32,000 bases of DNA from Zymomonas mobilis subsp. mobilis ATCC 10988 (GCF_000175255.2 NC_017262.1:1020001-1052000); one strand, 5' to 3'. Positions 24,645 to 32,000 are shown, counted from the stretch's first letter. The notes: generated by a model from the sequence alone, not told the origin. A program made the numbers and translations.

Positions 24645-25130
24645 ATGGCCGAAAAGGTCAACAATCTTCAGGATTTTTTCCTTAATACCTTGCGCAAGAC
24701 CCGCACACCGGTGACGATGTTTTTGGTAAAAGGTGTCAAATTACAGGGCGTTATCACCTGGTTTGACAATTTTTCTATTCTGCTGCGGAGAGATGGTCAG
24801 TCACAGCTGGTCTATAAACACGCTATTTCTACCATTATTCCGGCGCATCCGCTGGAACAGCTGCGCGAAAGCCGCAGTTTGATGGCTGAACGTAAATCCA
24901 GTTTGCTTCAGGATGTCTTTTTATCGGCGATTATGCAGCAGCAAGAACCGGTGACAATGTTTTTGATAAACGGGGTCATGTTGCAAGGTGAAATTGCCGC
25001 CTTCGATTTATTCTGCGTCTTGTTAACCCGTAATGACGACGCACAGCTGGTTTATAAACATGCGGTTTCAACAGTGCAGCCTGTGAAATCTGTAGATTTG
25101 ACAATGACAGAAAGGCGAGACGAGGATTGA
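24645..25130 (+). CDS. hfq: RNA chaperone Hfq with two tandem Sm domains (161 aa)
   Basis: There are two complete Sm1/Sm2 units: LQDFFLN...[14 protein letters not shown]...[10 protein letters not shown] and LQDVFLS...[14 protein letters not shown]...[10 protein letters not shown]. It lies directly upstream of hflX. Confidence 0.92.
24666..25094 (+). repeat. In-frame tandem duplication inside hfq (period exactly 240 nt / 80 codons)
   Basis: CTTCAGGAT occurs at 24666 and 24906. CCGGTGAC(G/A)ATGTTTTTG occurs at 24708 and 24948. CAGCTGGT(C/T)TATAAACA occurs in both units. By hand alignment, residues 8-67 versus 88-147 give 33/60 identities with no indel. Confidence 0.9.
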
Positions 25131-26529: not shown

Positions 26530-27096
26530 ATGGTTACTGATCCTTGTCCAGAGCTAAGCGGATTATTGCTTTTGGCTTTGCCCAATATAAGGGATGTCGA
26601 ATTTCAAAAAGCGGTTATCGCTTTATGTGCCTTTAATGAAAAAGGGGCTTTGGGGCTGAATATTGGTCGCATTATTCCCGATGTGACGTTGCATTCTTTG
26701 ATGCATCAATTGGGTATTCAGCCCGGCCTTGTTCCTGATCGACCTGTTCATGATGGTGGCCCCTGTGAACCCCAGCGTGGGATGGTATTGCATAGTCGCG
26801 ATTGGCATAGTCCTGATAGCATGATGGTTGGGCAGGATTGGGCTTTGACCTGTACTCTGGACGTGCTTCATGCGCTTAGTCGAGGAGAAGGCCCGCAGCA
26901 TTGGCTGGTTGCCTTAGGCTATGCTGGCTGGGGCGCTGGTCAACTGGATCAGGAAATGAAACAGGCGGATTGGTTTCTTTCCAAAGTGGATGACCAATTA
27001 CTCTTTTCTTGTCCGGCAGAAAATCGTTGGCAGCAGGGATATCAACAGGCTGGTGTCGATTTTTATCGTTTGGCGACAAAAATAGGGCAGGCTTGA
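26530..27096 (+). CDS. YqgE/AlgH family protein (UPF0301)
   Basis: Characteristic segments are F.KAVI.LC.....GA.G...[15 protein letters not shown] and [16 protein letters not shown]. Confidence 0.8.
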
Positions 27097-27235
27097 CGAT
27101 AGATAATGTCTTTCATTCTTTGATATATTTCTTTTGTAGAAGAAAATATTTTTCAAGAATATTACTTTCTAGAAGCTGAAAGAATGATCCCACCGATTGG
27201 ATGCATGTCTCATTTATCCCGATAAAGGAGAGAAT

Positions 27236-27862
27236 ATGGCTGATATCCGCGAACCTGTGCTGTTGACAGCCGCTTTGACTGATTTGCATCCTACCCAGAT
27301 TTCGGTCGGTATGCGGGAAGTCGAAAATAAACGCGAAAATTGGCGCGAAAAAGAGGATGATAAAAAATCTCTTTATCTTGGTAGCCATTTAATTCCGGTG
27401 GTTCTGGGGGATCAGAGTCAGCCTTTTGTTGTTGATCATCACCATCTATGTCGCGCGCTTTTAGAAGAAGGGGTGACTAAAGTTGCCTTATCCGTGATGG
27501 CCGATCTTTCTTCTTTGGAAAAAGATCATTTCTGGTTTGTTATGGATAGTCAGCGCTGGATGCATCCTTTCGATGAAAAGGGCATCCGCCGTAGTTATCA
27601 GGATATTCCCGATAGTCTGACCGAGATGAAAGATGATCCTTATCGTTCTCTGGCCGGTTCTTTGCGTCGTGCCGGAGGATATGCCAAAGACGTGACACCT
27701 TTTAGTGAATTTTTATGGGCAGATTATTTGCGGCGGCAATTTAACGGAGCCGATATTGCACATAATTTCAATGATTTTTTGGAAAAAGCCTTGATTCTTG
27801 CTCATGACAAAAAGGCTTCCTATTTGCCCGGATGGTGTGCGCCGCAAGTAAAGCATGTCTAG
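27236..27862 (+). CDS. ParB/Srx-fold protein (ParBc_2-like 'putative ParB-like nuclease')
   Basis: AAGGAG at 27225-27230 precedes ATG 27236, whereas the track's TTG 27197 lacks an SD. It carries L.DLHPTQISVG and the ParB-box-like VVDHHHLCRAL, followed by a helical C-terminal half. The family assignment is by motif memory and is not verified. Confidence 0.65.
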   Translation: MADIREPVLLTAALTDLHPTQISVGMREVENKRENWREKEDDKKSLYLGSHLIPVVLGDQSQPFVVDHHHLCRALLEEGVTKVALSVMADLSSLEKDHFWFVMDSQRWMHPFDEKGIRRSYQDIPDSLTEMKDDPYRSLAGSLRRAGGYAKDVTPFSEFLWADYLRRQFNGADIAHNFNDFLEKALILAHDKKASYLPGWCAPQVKHV

Positions 27863-28084
27863 ACATGATATTTCCCTGATCTTGTTTTCTCCAATATCCC
27901 TATGTATTTTCAGTAAATTATCTTTTTTTGCCTTTTTTCAGGCTTTATGATGAAAAAGCGATTGAATAACGCTTGCTATCAAGTTCTATAGGGTATTTGG
28001 GCAAGGCTTGCCTTATATTGGCTGTTGTTTTCGGGTGAGGATAACCAAGCGTCTGTCCATGCGCGAGGTTCGGGATTATTGTGC

Positions 28085-31000
28085 ATGCGTATCAAAATTG
28101 GCGTTTCTGTCGCCAGTAAAATTGGTTTTGCTTCTCATCAGAATGCGGTCCCGTTAATTCACGATTTGGAAATAACCAATCCGACCTCGGAAGATTTTCA
28201 GGATTTGACCTTGATCCTGAAAGCGGATTTACCCTTTATTGAAGAAGTCCGTTGGAGAATTCCTCTTTTAAAAAAAGAAGAAAGCTATCAGCTTGCTTTG
28301 CAGCCGGTGATTTTAGACGCTGGTTTTCTGCATGATTTAAACGAAAATCTGACAACTCATCTGACTTTCTCGCTTGTCAAAGGCGATACTATTCTGGCCG
28401 AAACTGTCTTGCCGGTTGAGCTGCTGTCTTATGACCAATGGGGTGGTTATAAGACGATGTCGGAATTGCTGCCCGCCTTTGCTATGCCGAATGATCCGGT
28501 CATTGATTCCGTCTTGAAATCGGCTTCTGATGTTTTGGAAAAAGCTGGAAGATTGGCTTCGATTGAAGGTTACCAGTCACAGTCGCGGGAACGGGTTTGG
28601 GAAATAACCTCTGCCATTTGGTCGGCACTTTGCGGCTTGCATCTATCTGAAGCCCCGATGCCTGACCAATATGCTGAAAATGGTCAGAAAATACGGACGC
28701 CTGAACGCATTATATCAGGGCAGATCGCCAATAGCCTTGATGCGGCCTTGCTTTTGGCCGCAGTGTTAGAAAAATCCGGATTAAACGCTTTGGTCGTTTT
28801 GTTACGAGAGACCGTTTTGGTGGGGGTCTGGTTACAGCCGATTGAATTTGCCTCTCTTATTACCGATGAAGCGGCGGCCTTGAGGCGGCGGGTCGATTTA
28901 AAAGATATGCTGTTACTGGATTCTCGGCTTTTATTGCAGCTGATACCCTCTGCTTTGTCTGTTGCCGAGCGAGAGGCTCTGAAAAAAATTGCCGAAGAGC
29001 GTGCCGCCGATTTTGTTATGGCGATTGATATCCATCGGGCGCGTTTACAAAAAATCCGGCCTTTAAATAGCTTGTCGGGGAATGGTGAAGCATTTTCGCC
29101 ATCTGAATGGGAAGCGGCTGAAGCCTTTGAAACTGCGCCGGTATTACCCGCTTTTGATGTTGAAAGGCCGGAAAGTGATGCCATCGCAAAAGATCGGCTA
29201 ACCAGTTGGCAGCGCAAATTATTGGAATTAACGCCGCGCAATCGGTTGTTAAATTTACCTGCCAAAAGCAAACAGGTGCCTTTGATCTGTTCAGACCCGA
29301 TGAAGCTAGAAATTGGGTTGAGCGACGGTAAAAAGCTGAAAATCGTAGCGATGCCGGATTTTTCGGCCAATGGGCGCGATAAAGAACTGTATGCCTCACA
29401 AAATCAGAGTGATTTGCTTCAAGAAATGGCAGAAGCGGCTATGGCGAAAGGTGAAATTATGTCTTCACTTTCGGCGAATGCTTTGGAAGCGGCTCTGATT
29501 GATCTTTACCGGAAAGCCAGAAGCGATATTGACGAGGGCGGGGCGAATACCCTGTTTTTGGCAATCGGTTTTCTGAAATGGAAGCGGCATCCTGAAGAAA
29601 CGCGGGAATATTACGCGCCTCTGGTGCTGTTACCGGTGACTTTGGAACGGAAAAATGCCCTGTCAGGTCTGGTTCTGGTCAGGCATGAAGATGAAATCCG
29701 TTTCAATCTAACACTTCTGGAAATGTTGCGGCATGATTTTAGCCTGACAATACCAGAATTGAATAAGGCTTTGCCAGAGCAAGACGGGCTTGTTGATATT
29801 GCAGCGATATGGAATATTATCCGTCACGCTATTCGGGATATTAAAGGTTTCGAGCTAATCCCCGAAGTCAGTTTAAGCACTTTTTCCTTTGTCAAATATT
29901 TGATGTGGAAAGATTTAACCGATCGTTCTGATCAGTTAAAAGAAAGTCCTCTTGTTCATTATCTGTTAGACCGGACAAAAGAGAATTTACCTAAAAATAA
30001 GCATTTTCCCACTGCTGAAACGCTCGATAAAACCGTTAATCCAGGCGAATTATTTACCCCTTTACCTGCGGATAGCTCTCAATTAGCGGCGATTGTGGCC
30101 TCGGCTAAAGGCTGTGATTTTGTTCTGGATGGTCCTCCGGGGACAGGGAAATCCCAGACTATCGCCAATATTATTGCCCATAATCTGGCTTTGGGGCGGC
30201 GCGTTTTATTCGTAGCAGAGAAAAAAGCCGCACTCGATGTCGTTCAGCGGCGTTTAAATGCCAATGGATTAGGCGATTTCTGTCTGGAACTTCATTCCAG
30301 CAAGGCGACCCGTAGCGAAGTTATTAAACAGCTCAATCGAGCTTGGGCAGCGAGTAAGGATATTCCCGAAGCTGACTGGAAAAGTGAAGCTGAAAAGCTG
30401 CGGCAGTTGCGCGACAACCTTAATGAAGTCGTTCATTTGTTGCATCAGCGTCAGCCGAATGGGCTAACGCTCTATCAAGCAATCGGGGTTGTGGTTCGGG
30501 ATGGTGGCCGTGCGGTGCCTCGTCTGAATTTTTATCATCCGCTGCAACATAGTGAGCAAGACCTTGCTCATTTTCGTGATCTGGCGCAGCGTTTAGGGCT
30601 GGCTTGGCAGGAAGTTGAAGATATCCCGCAGGATTTCGATGCAGTAACGGTAAGCGAATGGTCGAATGGTTGGCAGGAATCCATTGTTGCAGCAGCCAAG
30701 AAGTTAAAAAATGCTGTTTTAGAAGTGATTGCCGCCAAAGAGGCTATTATTGAGGCTTCTAATTTGCCGATTATGGCCGATAGTCGCGACGGATTGGAGC
30801 AATTAAGTCATTTTATCCATTTGTTGGGAAAAGCCTATGGCCGGAATTGTTATCTGGCTTTCTCACCTGAAAAAAATAAAATTATCGAGGCCGCTTATCA
30901 GCTTATTTCTATTCTAAAAAGCTATCGCAAAGAGGCTTCCGGTCTGTCTGTCCGCTATGATCGCGATATTCTAAGACGGCTACGCACACATCCACGCCGA

Positions 31001-32000
31001 TTATGGCAGGAGTGGGAAAAAGCTGACCAGCGCTTCTGGTTCTTTTCTGTTTTTGAAAAGAAAAAAATTATCAAGCATTTGGCTAAAGCTGGACGCACCA
31101 AAGGCCGGATTGATGCCGCGCATGATTTGCCTCGTCTGGTGATGATGGGGCGATTCTATGAAAAGCTCTATCACTTAAGAAAAACAATGCCTGCCTTGAA
31201 ATATTTTTCTGGCTGGAAAGGTATTAGCAGCAATCTGACGATGATTGCAGATGAATGCAGCTTTGCCGAAGAATTGGAAGCTGCGGTTACAGCGCAGGCA
31301 GCTAACCCCGCCCATTTGATCGAATTACGGCAAGCTGTCAAAAATCTGGTTATGGAGGCGAATGCGCTATTAGACCCTGCTTCGCCTTTAATGATTGCAG
31401 CGCGGCGGCTGAAAAGTGCTTTGCAAATATTGGATAGAGCCAAGGATAGTTTTGTTTCTTTGGCTGATTCCGATATGCCCAATGACCCAAAGGCATGGCT
31501 GGAATTGGCTGAAACCATTATCAGCTATGAAAACCGTTTGCAGGCTTGGGCGAATTGGCAACGGATTCGGTATGAAGCAGTATCAGCGGGACTAAAACCT
31601 TTGGTCGATGCGATCGAAAGTCATGCGATCCCAAGCGATCAGGTGGCTTCTGCCTTTGAAGCCGGTTATGCGCGCTGGTTTGCCAGTAATCTGATTGATG
31701 CTGAACCGCGATTGCGGCGTTTCTCTTCGGCTATGCAGATGGCTGATATTGCGGCTTTCCGAAAAGTTGATGACCGTGTGTCTGAATTATCAGTGCAATA
31801 TATTCGGGCGCAATTAGCTAAAAATATTGCGGTTGATGAAAATAACGGTTTGCCTGCTGGTTATGCCATTTTGAAAAGACAGCTTCAATTAAAGCATCCT
31901 ATGCCTATCCGGCAGTTGATTAGCGAAATGGGTGATGATTTCGGACGCTTGGCACCTTGTATGCTGATGAGTCCATTATCAGTTGCCCAGTTTTTACCGC
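28085..32000 (+). CDS. Very large DUF4011-type / Upf1-like SF1 helicase-family protein, 3'-truncated by the window (at least 1,305 codons); not in the supplied ORF track
   Basis: By hand translation, the frame is open from ATG 28085 to 31999. The nearest upstream in-frame stop is TAG 27989-27991, and alternative TTG starts exist at 28025 and 28079. Motifs found: SWQRKLLELTPRNRLLNL (from 29204), GANTLFLAIGFLKWK, APLVLLPVTLER, Walker A LDGPPGTGKSQTIANII (GPPGTGKS = 30131-30154), and VLFVAEKKAALDVVQRRL..GLGDFCLELHSSKA. The window ends at CMLMSPLSVAQFLP, before any DExx motif II. Confidence 0.85.
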   Translation, partial: MRIKIGVSVASKIGFASHQNAVPLIHDLEITNPTSEDFQDLTLILKADLPFIEEVRWRIPLLKKEESYQLALQPVILDAGFLHDLNENLTTHLTFSLVKGDTILAETVLPVELLSYDQWGGYKTMSELLPAFAMPNDPVIDSVLKSASDVLEKAGRLASIEGYQSQSRERVWEITSAIWSALCGLHLSEAPMPDQYAENGQKIRTPERIISGQIANSLDAALLLAAVLEKSGLNALVVLLRETVLVGVWLQPIEFASLITDEAAALRRRVDLKDMLLLDSRLLLQLIPSALSVAEREALKKIAEERAADFVMAIDIHRARLQKIRPLNSLSGNGEAFSPSEWEAAEAFETAPVLPAFDVERPESDAIAKDRLTSWQRKLLELTPRNRLLNLPAKSKQVPLICSDPMKLEIGLSDGKKLKIVAMPDFSANGRDKELYASQNQSDLLQEMAEAAMAKGEIMSSLSANALEAALIDLYRKARSDIDEGGANTLFLAIGFLKWKRHPEETREYYAPLVLLPVTLERKNALSGLVLVRHEDEIRFNLTLLEMLRHDFSLTIPELNKALPEQDGLVDIAAIWNIIRHAIRDIKGFELIPEVSLSTFSFVKYLMWKDLTDRSDQLKESPLVHYLLDRTKENLPKNKHFPTAETLDKTVNPGELFTPLPADSSQLAAIVASAKGCDFVLDGPPGTGKSQTIANIIAHNLALGRRVLFVAEKKAALDVVQRRLNANGLGDFCLELHSSKATRSEVIKQLNRAWAASKDIPEADWKSEAEKLRQLRDNLNEVVHLLHQRQPNGLTLYQAIGVVVRDGGRAVPRLNFYHPLQHSEQDLAHFRDLAQRLGLAWQEVEDIPQDFDAVTVSEWSNGWQESIVAAAKKLKNAVLEVIAAKEAIIEASNLPIMADSRDGLEQLSHFIHLLGKAYGRNCYLAFSPEKNKIIEAAYQLISILKSYRKEASGLSVRYDRDILRRLRTHPRRLWQEWEKADQRFWFFSVFEKKKIIKHLAKAGRTKGRIDAAHDLPRLVMMGRFYEKLYHLRKTMPALKYFSGWKGISSNLTMIADECSFAEELEAAVTAQAANPAHLIELRQAVKNLVMEANALLDPASPLMIAARRLKSALQILDRAKDSFVSLADSDMPNDPKAWLELAETIISYENRLQAWANWQRIRYEAVSAGLKPLVDAIESHAIPSDQVASAFEAGYARWFASNLIDAEPRLRRFSSAMQMADIAAFRKVDDRVSELSVQYIRAQLAKNIAVDENNGLPAGYAILKRQLQLKHPMPIRQLISEMGDDFGRLAPCMLMSPLSVAQFLP

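What the first reader, a model, noticed from the sequence alone, without database searches (positions are those of the whole stretch)
28085..32000. The largest gene in the window is missing from the ORF track: an open frame of at least 1,305 codons encoding a DUF4011/Upf1-like helicase
Frame 2 is uninterrupted from ATG 28085 to the last base. It was presumably dropped because no stop codon falls inside the window. The only track entries in this region are three minus-strand ORFs (28684-29370, 29016-29399, 31171-31518), which are antisense shadows of this frame. The product carries an RNRLLN-type segment (SWQRKLLELTPRNRLLNL), GANTLFLAIGFLKW and APLVLLPVTLER. I associate these with the DUF4011 domain that precedes AAA_11/AAA_12 helicase cores. 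A canonical P-loop, GPPGTGKS, follows at 30131-30154. Proteins of this architecture usually continue into motif II-VI, a Vsr/REase-like nuclease and DUF3320. Single-gene 'Hhe'-type (helicase + Vsr endonuclease) anti-phage proteins have, as far as I recall, a related layout. An annotation that trusts the track alone would leave about 4 kb unexplained or fill it with spurious antisense genes.
Basis: partly seen in the sequence, partly recalled or inferred. Interest (0 to 1): 0.72.

Follow-up and report, generated by a model that had tools for sequence, protein, structure and literature searches.

The report
Truncated ProA-type anti-phage helicase-nuclease gene
The unlisted 4-kb open frame at the window's end is real: it is the first three-quarters of a large Zymomonas helicase-nuclease of a catalogued anti-phage family (ProA), ordinary except that this lineage has lost a conserved putative catalytic site and a tail domain.

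Summary
Window 28085-32000 (+) is one open frame of 1305 codons that runs off the window, which is why ORF lists omit it. All quoted motifs are present and the P-loop is at 30131-30154. Orthologs continue the frame: L001 (98% aa) carries helicase motifs II-VI, and Z. mobilis L002 (91%) ends naturally at 1733 aa.

The best family match is NCBIfam "anti-phage protein ProA" (L002: 1902.7 bits, cut-off 1500) and PADLOC PDC-S37. Hhe is a relative but falls far below its cut-off.

Architecture: beta-sandwich, probable transglutaminase-like domain, DUF4011, Upf1-like SF1 helicase with a ~600-aa insert, then a Vsr-type MTES_1575 nuclease.

New here: the family's near-invariant Cys217/His243/Glu279 read Ser/Thr/Asp in all three Zymomonas copies. 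The DUF3320 tail is also absent. Yet the gene is under strong purifying selection (dN/dS ~0.04), is found across Z. mobilis, and sits among housekeeping genes.

Verdict: a correct but ordinary catch, a member of a known family with a lineage-specific variant. I found no paper on ProA, so anti-phage activity rests on the database label.

The parts
28085..32000 (+). 5' 75% (codons 1-1305 of an expected ~1733) of a ProA-family / PDC-S37 helicase-nuclease gene; the frame runs off the window
   Evidence: Open frame. ProA profile positions 2-1298 of 1903, 1188.9 bits. PDC-S37 E 3e-156. Orthologs L001 and L002 continue the frame. dN/dS 0.038 against L002.
28085..28423 (+). N-terminal beta-sandwich domain (aa 1-113)
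   Evidence: AlphaFold model, pLDDT 90.6, all-beta over residues 4-113. Foldseek matches of ~115 columns to transglutaminases and other Ig-like sandwiches.
28430..29074 (+). Alpha/beta domain (aa 116-330), probably transglutaminase/papain-like; the putative catalytic set is substituted in Zymomonas
   Evidence: Domain-only model, pLDDT 88.8. Fold hits are weak (best E 9e-3) but almost all are transglutaminase-fold proteins: 3kd4, PNGase, Rad4/XPC, menin, 3isr, CPR-C4. Homologs weakly match Pfam DUF553 (17 of 30) and Transglut_core (7 of 30); the window's copy matches neither. 17 of 61 family-conserved columns differ in Zymomonas.
28733..28735 (+). Codon 217: Ser where the family has Cys (TCLD becomes NSLD)
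   Evidence: Cys in 26 of 26 non-Zymomonas loci and in 150 of 150 best representatives. The position lies at the N-terminus of helix 217-230 in the model.
28811..28813 (+). Codon 243: Thr (Ala in L001 and L002) where the family has His (GHAxVGVW becomes ETVLVGVW)
   Evidence: His in 26 of 26 loci and 150 of 150 representatives.
28919..28921 (+). Codon 279: Asp where the family has Glu (FETT becomes LDSR)
   Evidence: Glu in all 26 non-Zymomonas loci and in 144 of 150 representatives, with Asp in 4.
29216..29728 (+). DUF4011 domain (aa 378-548), including the RNRLLN, GANTLFLAIGFLKW and APLVLLPVTLER motifs
   Evidence: Pfam PF13195, E 5.7e-46, profile positions 1-158 of 158.
30071..30274 (+). 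Start of the SF1 (Upf1-like) helicase core, with Walker A GPPGTGKS at 30131-30154
   Evidence: AAA_11 aa 663-730, 29 bits against a cut-off of 27. P-loop position. PDB sequence hits to IGHMBP2, Upf1 and Sen1. 0 of 47 conserved columns differ.
30365..32000 (+). Large family-specific insert between helicase motifs I/Ia and II (aa ~761-1305+). No Pfam domain. Motif II (DEASQ) is expected about 12 codons beyond the window's end.
   Evidence: No Pfam hit. Covered by the ProA and PDC-S37 profiles. DEASQ at residue 1317 of L002, and seen in L001.
28684..29370 (-). Antisense shadow ORF (228 aa)
   Evidence: Internal stop in both L001 and L002.
29016..29399 (-). Antisense shadow ORF (127 aa)
   Evidence: Internal stop in L001 and L002; start codon lost in L002.
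31171..31518 (-). Antisense shadow ORF (115 aa)
   Evidence: Start codon ATG becomes ATC in L002. No independent support for coding.
27197..27862 (+). Upstream neighbour: ParBc_2 (PF08857) putative ParB-like nuclease. Adjacent to the helicase gene only in Zymomonas, so context rather than a demonstrated partner.
   Evidence: Pfam E 5.5e-63. Homologs found only in L001 and L002 among 32 loci. No PADLOC match.

Best explanation
The frame encodes the first 1305 residues of a ~1733-aa single-polypeptide helicase-nuclease. It belongs to the DUF4011/Upf1-like family that NCBIfam names 'anti-phage protein ProA' and PADLOC lists as single-gene candidate PDC-S37, a sister family of Hhe. Shown here: the domain order is beta-sandwich, probable transglutaminase-like domain, DUF4011, SF1 helicase split by a ~600-aa insert, then (in orthologs) a Vsr-type MTES_1575 endonuclease. 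Helicase and nuclease motifs are intact. The gene is under strong purifying selection. No partner gene is conserved. Inferred mechanism: the protein acts alone. The N-terminal module and DUF4011 probably sense or gate activity. The ATP-driven helicase then loads and translocates on nucleic acid, probably phage replication or recombination intermediates, by analogy with Hhe (whose candidate triggers in T7 are DNA-metabolism genes) and with other helicase-coupled nucleases. The C-terminal endonuclease cuts the DNA. In Zymomonas the transglutaminase-like domain has lost the family's Cys/His/Glu and the DUF3320 tail is gone. So here the N-terminal domain most likely serves as a non-catalytic binding or regulatory module.
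For: Open frame and motifs. ProA equivalog: 1188.9 bits for the fragment and 1902.7 bits (cut-off 1500) for the 91% ortholog. PDC-S37: E 3e-156 for the fragment and 1091.5 bits for the ortholog. Pfam finds DUF4011, AAA_11, AAA_12 and MTES_1575. Motifs I-VI and the nuclease core agree with the family consensus. dN/dS is 0.038 at dS ~1.4, and 0.036 in the degenerate domain. No neighbour is conserved across 20+ loci. Some homologs elsewhere lie beside Wadjet, type III methyltransferase, mad3 and PARIS genes. N-terminal models have pLDDT 90.6 and 88.8. The transglutaminase-fold hit list and weak Pfam hits agree. Hhe background comes from 10.1101/2024.10.10.617714.
Against: I found no paper describing ProA or PDC-S37, so anti-phage activity rests on a database label. 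In Zymomonas the gene is species-wide and syntenic among housekeeping genes (hfq, hflX, algH), with no compositional anomaly. That is atypical for mobile defence genes. The protein lacks two family features, the Cys/His site and DUF3320. The transglutaminase-fold assignment rests on individually weak matches, and a profile search of PDB sequences found nothing. The window itself stops before motif II, so intactness of this exact copy is inferred from L001 and L002.
Confidence: 0.8

Rival explanations
1. It is an Hhe (Gao et al. helicase + Vsr endonuclease) anti-phage protein in the strict sense.
For: The Hhe profiles match. PADLOC Hhe gives E 1.9e-62 for the fragment and 2.5e-173 for the ortholog. 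NCBIfam Hhe_antiphage gives 326.6 and 778.8 bits. The overall layout is shared: DUF4011, split SF1 helicase, Vsr-type nuclease.
Against: The NCBIfam Hhe score is far below the 2000-bit cut-off, and the match comes in two separate stretches that miss the N-terminus and the middle insert. ProA and PDC-S37 score much higher over one continuous stretch. In the Hhe profile DUF4011 starts near position 114, whereas here it follows about 370 aa of extra domains.
Confidence: 0.07
2. In Zymomonas the protein is no longer, or never was, an immune gene. It is a vertically inherited chromosomal helicase-nuclease with a housekeeping role in DNA repair, recombination or nucleic-acid quality control, and 'ProA' is only a family resemblance.
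For: It is syntenic in three Zymomonas lineages separated by dS ~1.4 and is embedded between hfq-hflX-algH and polysaccharide genes. It is present at 1733 aa in ZM4, ATCC 10988 and many other strains. Composition is native. Two family features were lost on a long branch. In P. aeruginosa a large DUF4011 gene is a core gene flanking hotspot cDHS1 (PMC10250203).
Against: The helicase and nuclease remain family-typical, and the ortholog passes the equivalog cut-off. Homologs elsewhere lie beside defence genes. Core, chromosomally fixed defence genes are known. Nothing here points to a specific housekeeping pathway.
Confidence: 0.15
3. The frame is a decaying pseudogene or an artefact of the window edge.
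For: The stop codon is not in the window. The N-terminal domain has lost conserved residues. One distant homolog (L025) is truncated at 695 aa.
Against: dN/dS is 0.03-0.04 in every segment. There are no indels across 3915 nt in three lineages. L001 stays open for at least 1634 codons and L002 ends at the natural terminus shared by other ~1730-aa members.
Confidence: 0.02

Closest known systems
ProA (NCBIfam NF058533, 'anti-phage protein ProA') = PADLOC candidate PDC-S37
   Same: End-to-end collinear match. The fragment covers profile positions 2-1298 of 1903. The ortholog scores 1902.7 bits, above the 1500 cut-off. Same order of N-terminal module, DUF4011, split SF1 helicase and MTES_1575 nuclease. 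Stand-alone gene.
   Different: The Zymomonas protein stops at profile position 1715 and has no DUF3320 tail. It has Ser/Thr(Ala)/Asp where the family has Cys217/His243/Glu279. It is a species-wide gene in a housekeeping context. The PDC-S37 profile itself does not cover the N-terminal ~370 aa.
Hhe (Gao et al. 2020 helicase + Vsr endonuclease; NCBIfam NF042953, PADLOC PDLC02194)
   Same: Single-gene DUF4011 + Upf1-like helicase + Vsr-type nuclease. The DUF4011/P-loop region and the motif II-to-nuclease region are clearly homologous. It is probably the best functional analogue. Per 10.1101/2024.10.10.617714, Hhe's candidate triggers in T7 are DNA-metabolism genes.
   Different: Scores lie far below the Hhe cut-off. 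The N-terminal ~450 aa and the middle insert do not align, and the Hhe profile has only ~110 positions before DUF4011.
Eukaryotic Upf1-like SF1 helicases (Upf1, IGHMBP2/Smubp-2, Sen1)
   Same: The nearest solved structures by sequence, for the Walker A and motif II regions. AAA_11/AAA_12 Pfam families.
   Different: Only short stretches align (E 5e-7 at best). The eukaryotic proteins have no DUF4011, no ~600-aa insert, no fused endonuclease and no transglutaminase-like module.
Rad4/XPC transglutaminase-homology domain and PNGase
   Same: They appear among the fold matches of residues 116-330. Rad4/XPC is the established example of a transglutaminase fold that lost its catalytic residues and works as a structural or binding module in a DNA-surveillance protein (my own knowledge). 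That parallels the Zymomonas state.
   Different: Matches are weak (E 0.04-0.3, TM 0.3-0.38). This is an analogy for the inactive-domain idea, not a membership claim.
Helicase-coupled nuclease immune systems (Druantia DruE-DruH, Hachiman HamAB)
   Same: A helicase that reads DNA structure or integrity and licenses a nuclease (10.64898/2026.05.13.724313; abstracts seen).
   Different: Different helicase superfamilies and multi-protein systems. No sequence relationship was shown here.

Membership tests
ProA (NCBIfam NF058533, equivalog) | Whole-protein HMM score at or above the curated cut-off (1500 bits) | tested here: met
   The 91%-identical full-length ortholog L002 scores 1902.7 bits. The window fragment alone scores 1188.9 bits because it covers only profile positions 2-1298 of 1903.
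ProA (NCBIfam NF058533, equivalog) | N-terminal beta-sandwich plus alpha/beta (transglutaminase-like) module ahead of DUF4011 | tested here: met
   The profile aligns from residue 15. Models have pLDDT 90.6 and 88.8. The domain sits at residues ~115-350 of 1730-2250-aa proteins in the 150 best of 5415 representative clusters.
ProA (NCBIfam NF058533, equivalog) | Near-invariant Cys217 / His243 / Glu279 in the N-terminal alpha/beta domain | tested here: not met
   Window has Ser/Thr/Asp; L001 and L002 have Ser/Ala/Asp. All 26 other loci and 150/150, 150/150 and 144/150 representatives keep Cys, His and Glu. Whether this site is needed for function is unknown.
ProA (NCBIfam NF058533, equivalog) | DUF4011 domain | tested here: met
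   PF13195, E 5.7e-46, full profile length.
ProA (NCBIfam NF058533, equivalog) | Complete SF1 helicase core (motifs I-VI) with the large insert | tested here: met
   Motif I lies in the window. Motifs II-VI are present in L001 and L002 and agree with the consensus, apart from one motif V-adjacent residue, QGIERD against QGDERD. For this exact copy, motifs II-VI lie beyond base 32000.
ProA (NCBIfam NF058533, equivalog) | C-terminal Vsr-type / MTES_1575 endonuclease | tested here: met
   PF18741, E 9e-35, at residues 1618-1715 of L002. 1 of 49 conserved columns differs. This part lies outside the window.
ProA (NCBIfam NF058533, equivalog) | C-terminal DUF3320 tail (profile positions ~1716-1903) | tested here: not met
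   L002 ends at profile position 1715. There is no Pfam DUF3320 and no remnant downstream. A ~1730-aa class without the tail also occurs in other lineages.
ProA (NCBIfam NF058533, equivalog) | Protection against phage | not testable with these tools
   No paper on ProA or PDC-S37 was found in the held library.
PADLOC PDC-S37 (single-gene candidate) | HMM match over most of the profile; stand-alone gene | tested here: met
   E 3.2e-156 for the fragment. 1091.5 bits over positions 7-1345 of 1550 for L002. No conserved neighbour.
Hhe (NCBIfam NF042953, equivalog) | Whole-protein HMM score at or above the cut-off (2000 bits), collinear match | tested here: not met
   326.6 bits for the fragment and 778.8 bits for L002, in two separate stretches.
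Upf1-like SF1 helicases (Pfam AAA_11 / AAA_12) | AAA_11 and AAA_12 above gathering thresholds; Walker A and DEAxQ motifs | tested here: met
   AAA_11 scores 29.0 bits (window) and 57.1 bits (L002) against a cut-off of 27. AAA_12 scores 49.9 bits. GPPGTGKS and DEASQ are present.
Transglutaminase-like / papain-like thiol peptidase superfamily (N-terminal domain) | Fold with Cys at a helix N-terminus and His and an acidic residue on following strands | tested here: inconclusive

The most novel reading that the evidence does not exclude
Zymomonas carries a domesticated ProA. After vertical fixation in the core genome, the family's otherwise invariant Cys-His-Glu site was replaced and the DUF3320 tail deleted, while the helicase and nuclease stayed under strong purifying selection. 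This would be a natural pseudo-enzyme experiment. Either the transglutaminase-like domain of ProA proteins is a sensor or autoinhibitory module whose chemistry is dispensable, or the Zymomonas protein was repurposed from phage defence to a chromosomal nucleic-acid maintenance role.
Probability: 0.25. Interest if true: 0.55.

Novelty: new member of a known kind. Interest (0 to 1): 0.33.

Why it matters
For annotation, about 4 kb at the window's edge should be called as one gene fragment (ProA-family DUF4011 helicase-nuclease), not left empty or filled with three antisense ORFs. For biology, the family is large. The N-terminal domain alone defines more than 5000 representative clusters. Yet I could find no paper on it. 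The Zymomonas lineage is a natural variant lacking the putative catalytic Cys/His and the DUF3320 tail while remaining strongly constrained. That makes the roles of those two modules directly testable, by comparing Zymomonas and Pseudomonas-type proteins in the same assay. Z. mobilis is an industrial ethanol producer, so knowing its nucleic-acid-targeting barriers also bears on phage resistance and on transformation efficiency.

Tried and rejected
- Literature on the name: five searches for ProA or PDC-S37 as a defence protein found nothing relevant. A search for transglutaminase-like + helicase defence papers found only unrelated systems.
- ParB-like nuclease (27197-27862) as a conserved partner: rejected. 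It is adjacent only in Zymomonas and has no PADLOC match.
- Any conserved neighbour across 20+ loci: none found.
- Sequence-level link of the alpha/beta domain to solved structures: a profile search of PDB sequences found nothing even at E 10.
- Foldseek on the whole N-terminal model returned eukaryotic transglutaminases, but only ~115 columns aligned and other Ig-like sandwiches also appeared. I did not count this as evidence for the catalytic-core fold and modelled the domain alone instead.
- Promoter and terminator scan of 27000-28300: counts were no higher than in shuffled sequence and nothing convincing lay in the 222-nt gap.
- Pseudogene reading: rejected on dN/dS and on the intact orthologs.
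- DUF3320 remnant downstream of the Z. mobilis gene: none.
- My first protein search (N-terminal 375 aa) returned only 29 fragments because of the word-index candidate limit. It was useful as an alignment but not as a census. The exhaustive profile search served as the census.


Full report
**Observation.** Translating window 28085-32000 on the + strand gives 1305 codons without a stop. The mechanical ORF list contains no + strand entry here. It shows only three minus-strand ORFs, at 28684-29370, 29016-29399 and 31171-31518. The tool states that ORFs running off the source are not listed, which explains the omission. The nearest upstream in-frame stop is at 27989. ATG 28085 aligns with the N-termini of homologs (MxIKI...). 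The equivalent start is the deposited one in Z. mobilis: the 1733-aa product is found by exact look-up and the longer variant is not. GC content (0.45-0.48) is the same as in the rest of the window. The three antisense ORFs are interrupted by stops or lose their start codon in the Zymomonas relatives, so they are shadow ORFs.

**Source and completeness.** A scan of species-representative genomes found 32 loci encoding relatives. The nearest are a Zymomonas sp. MAG (L001, 98% aa, 92% nt) and Z. mobilis AN0101 (L002, 91% aa, 81% nt). In L001 the frame stays open to the contig end (at least 1634 codons) and carries DEASQ, GDPRQMPP, HYRS, TVQGIERD and LNVALTRAR. In L002 the gene ends naturally at 1733 aa. 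Across the 3915 shared nucleotides the three copies have no indels. dN/dS is 0.038 (window against L002, dS ~1.46) and lies between 0.01 and 0.11 in every segment. The pseudogene scenario is therefore rejected. The only caveat is that this exact copy's 3' quarter is not in the window. The same 1733-aa protein occurs in ZM4 (AAV88975.2, 'putative DNA helicase', seen on 313 contigs), in ATCC 10988 and in many other strains. There it is annotated only as 'DUF4011 domain-containing protein'.

**Family assignment.**
- Pfam finds DUF4011 (aa 378-548, E 5.7e-46) and the start of AAA_11 in the fragment.
- In L002, Pfam finds DUF4011, AAA_11, AAA_12 and REase_MTES_1575 at residues 1618-1715.
- NCBIfam's best model is NF058533, 'anti-phage protein ProA' (equivalog). 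The fragment scores 1188.9 bits over profile positions 2-1298 of 1903. L002 scores 1902.7 bits, above the 1500 cut-off.
- PADLOC's best model is the single-gene candidate PDC-S37: E 3.2e-156 for the fragment and 1091.5 bits for L002.
- Hhe models also match, but far more weakly and in two separate stretches. NCBIfam gives 326.6 and 778.8 bits against a cut-off of 2000.

The precise family is ProA/PDC-S37, a sister of Hhe. The nearest solved structures by sequence are IGHMBP2, Upf1 and Sen1, over short stretches only.

**Single gene, and context.** The window's upstream genes are tldD, an Exo_endo_phos gene, amtB, hfq, hflX, algH and a ParBc_2 ParB-like nuclease. The same order holds in L002. 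There the helicase gene is followed by a glycosyltransferase-like ORF and an IspD-SDR fusion. The ParB-like gene neighbours the helicase only in Zymomonas. No gene family recurs beside the homologs across distant taxa, which fits a stand-alone system. Among 115 large neighbouring ORFs of 19 other loci, some match defence proteins strongly: Wadjet JetC, type III methyltransferase, mad3, PARIS AriA, ZorD/DpdE-like helicase, PDC-S04 and PDC-S06. So the family lies in defence neighbourhoods in some genomes, but not in Zymomonas. I did not compute a background rate, so I claim no enrichment.

**The uncharacterised N-terminus.** Pfam does not cover residues 1-370.
- An AlphaFold model built on 29 database homologs is confident (pLDDT 90.6). 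It shows a beta-sandwich at 4-113 and an alpha/beta domain at ~121-321.
- Homologs of this region weakly match the transglutaminase-like Pfam families DUF553 (17 of 30, best E 8e-4) and Transglut_core (7 of 30). The window's own sequence matches neither.
- Foldseek on the whole model returns TG3, factor XIII and TG2 (E ~3e-4) over only ~115 columns, probably the sandwich.
- A domain-only model (pLDDT 88.8) gives individually weak matches (best E 9e-3). The list is almost entirely transglutaminase-fold proteins: the putative proteases 3kd4 and 3isr, PNGase, Rad4/XPC, menin and CPR-C4.
- The topology fits the papain/transglutaminase arrangement. Position 217 opens a helix, and positions 243 and 279 lie on the following strands.

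I rate the fold assignment as probable, not proven. An exhaustive profile search shows the domain in 5415 representative clusters (1240 at E<=1e-30). In the 150 best it always lies at residues ~115-350 of proteins of 1730-2250 aa, or of fragments of them. It is thus a hallmark of this helicase family.

**The lineage-specific twist.** The family has near-invariant motifs TCLD, GHAxVGVW and FETT.
- All 26 non-Zymomonas genome loci keep Cys217, His243 and Glu279. These loci were recruited through peptides elsewhere in the protein, so they are unbiased for this site.
- The 150 best representatives keep them in 150, 150 and 144 cases. That set is biased towards good profile matches.
- The window, L001 and L002 read NSLD, E(T/A)VLVGVW and LDSR, that is Ser, Thr or Ala, and Asp.
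- Against columns conserved in at least 90% of the other 23 full-length proteins, the Zymomonas protein departs at 17 of 61 columns in this domain. Any other member departs at 0-10.
- By contrast it departs at 0 of 47 columns around the P-loop, 9 of 129 in motifs II-VI and 1 of 49 in the nuclease.
- The domain is nevertheless as constrained within Zymomonas as the rest of the protein (dN/dS 0.036).

It is therefore a maintained and presumably non-catalytic module rather than decaying sequence.

Zymomonas also lacks the C-terminal DUF3320 tail. L002 ends at ProA profile position 1715 of 1903, directly after the nuclease, and has no remnant downstream. A ~1730-aa class exists in other lineages. 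In a neighbour-joining tree, however, Zymomonas is a long-branch sister to a clade made up only of long forms. Its loss of the tail therefore looks independent.

**Mechanism (inferred).** What is shown is the domain order, the intact ATPase/helicase and endonuclease motifs, the stand-alone organisation and the selective constraint. The rest is inference from related systems. I propose that an N-terminal sensing or gating region (sandwich, transglutaminase-like domain, DUF4011) controls an SF1 translocase, which delivers a Vsr-type endonuclease to foreign DNA.

For Hhe, a phage knock-out screen found seven T7 DNA-metabolism genes behaving as potential triggers, and one Bas63 gene that is toxic only in Hhe cells. 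The authors concluded that activation responds to what the trigger genes do rather than to direct recognition (10.1101/2024.10.10.617714). A second screen found a phage anti-Hhe gene. Druantia III shows how a helicase-nuclease can be licensed by forked DNA (10.64898/2026.05.13.724313).

In canonical ProA proteins the invariant Cys/His suggests a thiol-dependent activity (peptidase, isopeptidase or transglutaminase) of unknown target. In Zymomonas that chemistry cannot operate in the same way. Rad4/XPC is the known precedent for a dead transglutaminase fold acting as a structural or binding module in DNA surveillance (my own knowledge).

**Rivals.**
- Strict Hhe membership fails the score test.
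- A housekeeping role in Zymomonas is not excluded. The gene is core, syntenic, compositionally native, has lost two modules and sits on a long branch. P. aeruginosa also has a core 'large DUF4011 gene' flanking defence hotspot cDHS1 (PMC10250203), though I did not test whether that gene is a ProA.
- The pseudogene or artefact reading is contradicted by the selection and ortholog data.

**Novelty and limits.** The family is catalogued (NCBIfam, PADLOC) and the Z. mobilis protein is deposited, so the finding is a correct annotation catch rather than a discovery. The substituted putative catalytic site and the missing tail are, as far as I could find, undescribed. They are modest in scope. I found no paper on ProA or PDC-S37 in the held library, so the 'anti-phage' function is a database label that I could not verify.

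Noticed in passing
window 24645-25130 (+): The hfq gene encodes 161 aa, and the Pfam Hfq model matches it in two separate stretches. That suggests a duplicated Sm-like domain rather than the usual single-domain Hfq of ~80-100 aa.
   Followed up: no
window 27197-27862 (+): A ParBc_2 (PF08857) 'putative ParB-like nuclease' lies 222 nt upstream of the helicase gene on the same strand. The pairing is conserved in all three Zymomonas lineages but in none of the other loci, and it has no PADLOC match. Whether it works with the helicase-nuclease in Zymomonas is open.
   Followed up: partly
L025 10001-12085 and L012 899-3955: Two homologs end prematurely: L025 (an alphaproteobacterial MAG) at 695 aa and L012 at 1019 aa. 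L012's contig is only 4 kb. These may be pseudogenes or assembly errors, so not every copy of the family is intact.
   Followed up: no
PADLOC profile PDLC05009 against L002 and L006: The PDC-S37 profile starts at DUF4011: protein residue ~369 aligns to profile position 7. It therefore does not model the ~370-aa beta-sandwich plus transglutaminase-like module, which the NCBIfam ProA profile does cover. Tools relying on PDC-S37 will not notice changes in that module.
   Followed up: yes
L002 17023-18369 (downstream of the ortholog): A fused IspD-like cytidylyltransferase plus short-chain dehydrogenase. The best match is D-ribitol-5-phosphate cytidylyltransferase, 170.1 bits against a cut-off of 166. 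It follows a glycosyltransferase-like ORF. This suggests a CDP-ribitol-type surface polysaccharide locus next to the helicase gene.
   Followed up: no
L002 residue 1517 (motif V region; beyond the window): The Zymomonas proteins read TVQGIERD where at least 90% of the family reads QGDERD. This is the only departure I noted at a family-conserved position within one of the named helicase motifs. Its significance is unknown.
   Followed up: no
PMC10250203 (P. aeruginosa cDHS1): A 'large DUF4011 gene', preceded by a small conserved hypothetical gene, is reported as a core gene present in every P. aeruginosa isolate and flanking a defence hotspot. This resembles the core-like status of the Zymomonas gene. 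I did not test whether that protein is ProA-type.
   Followed up: no
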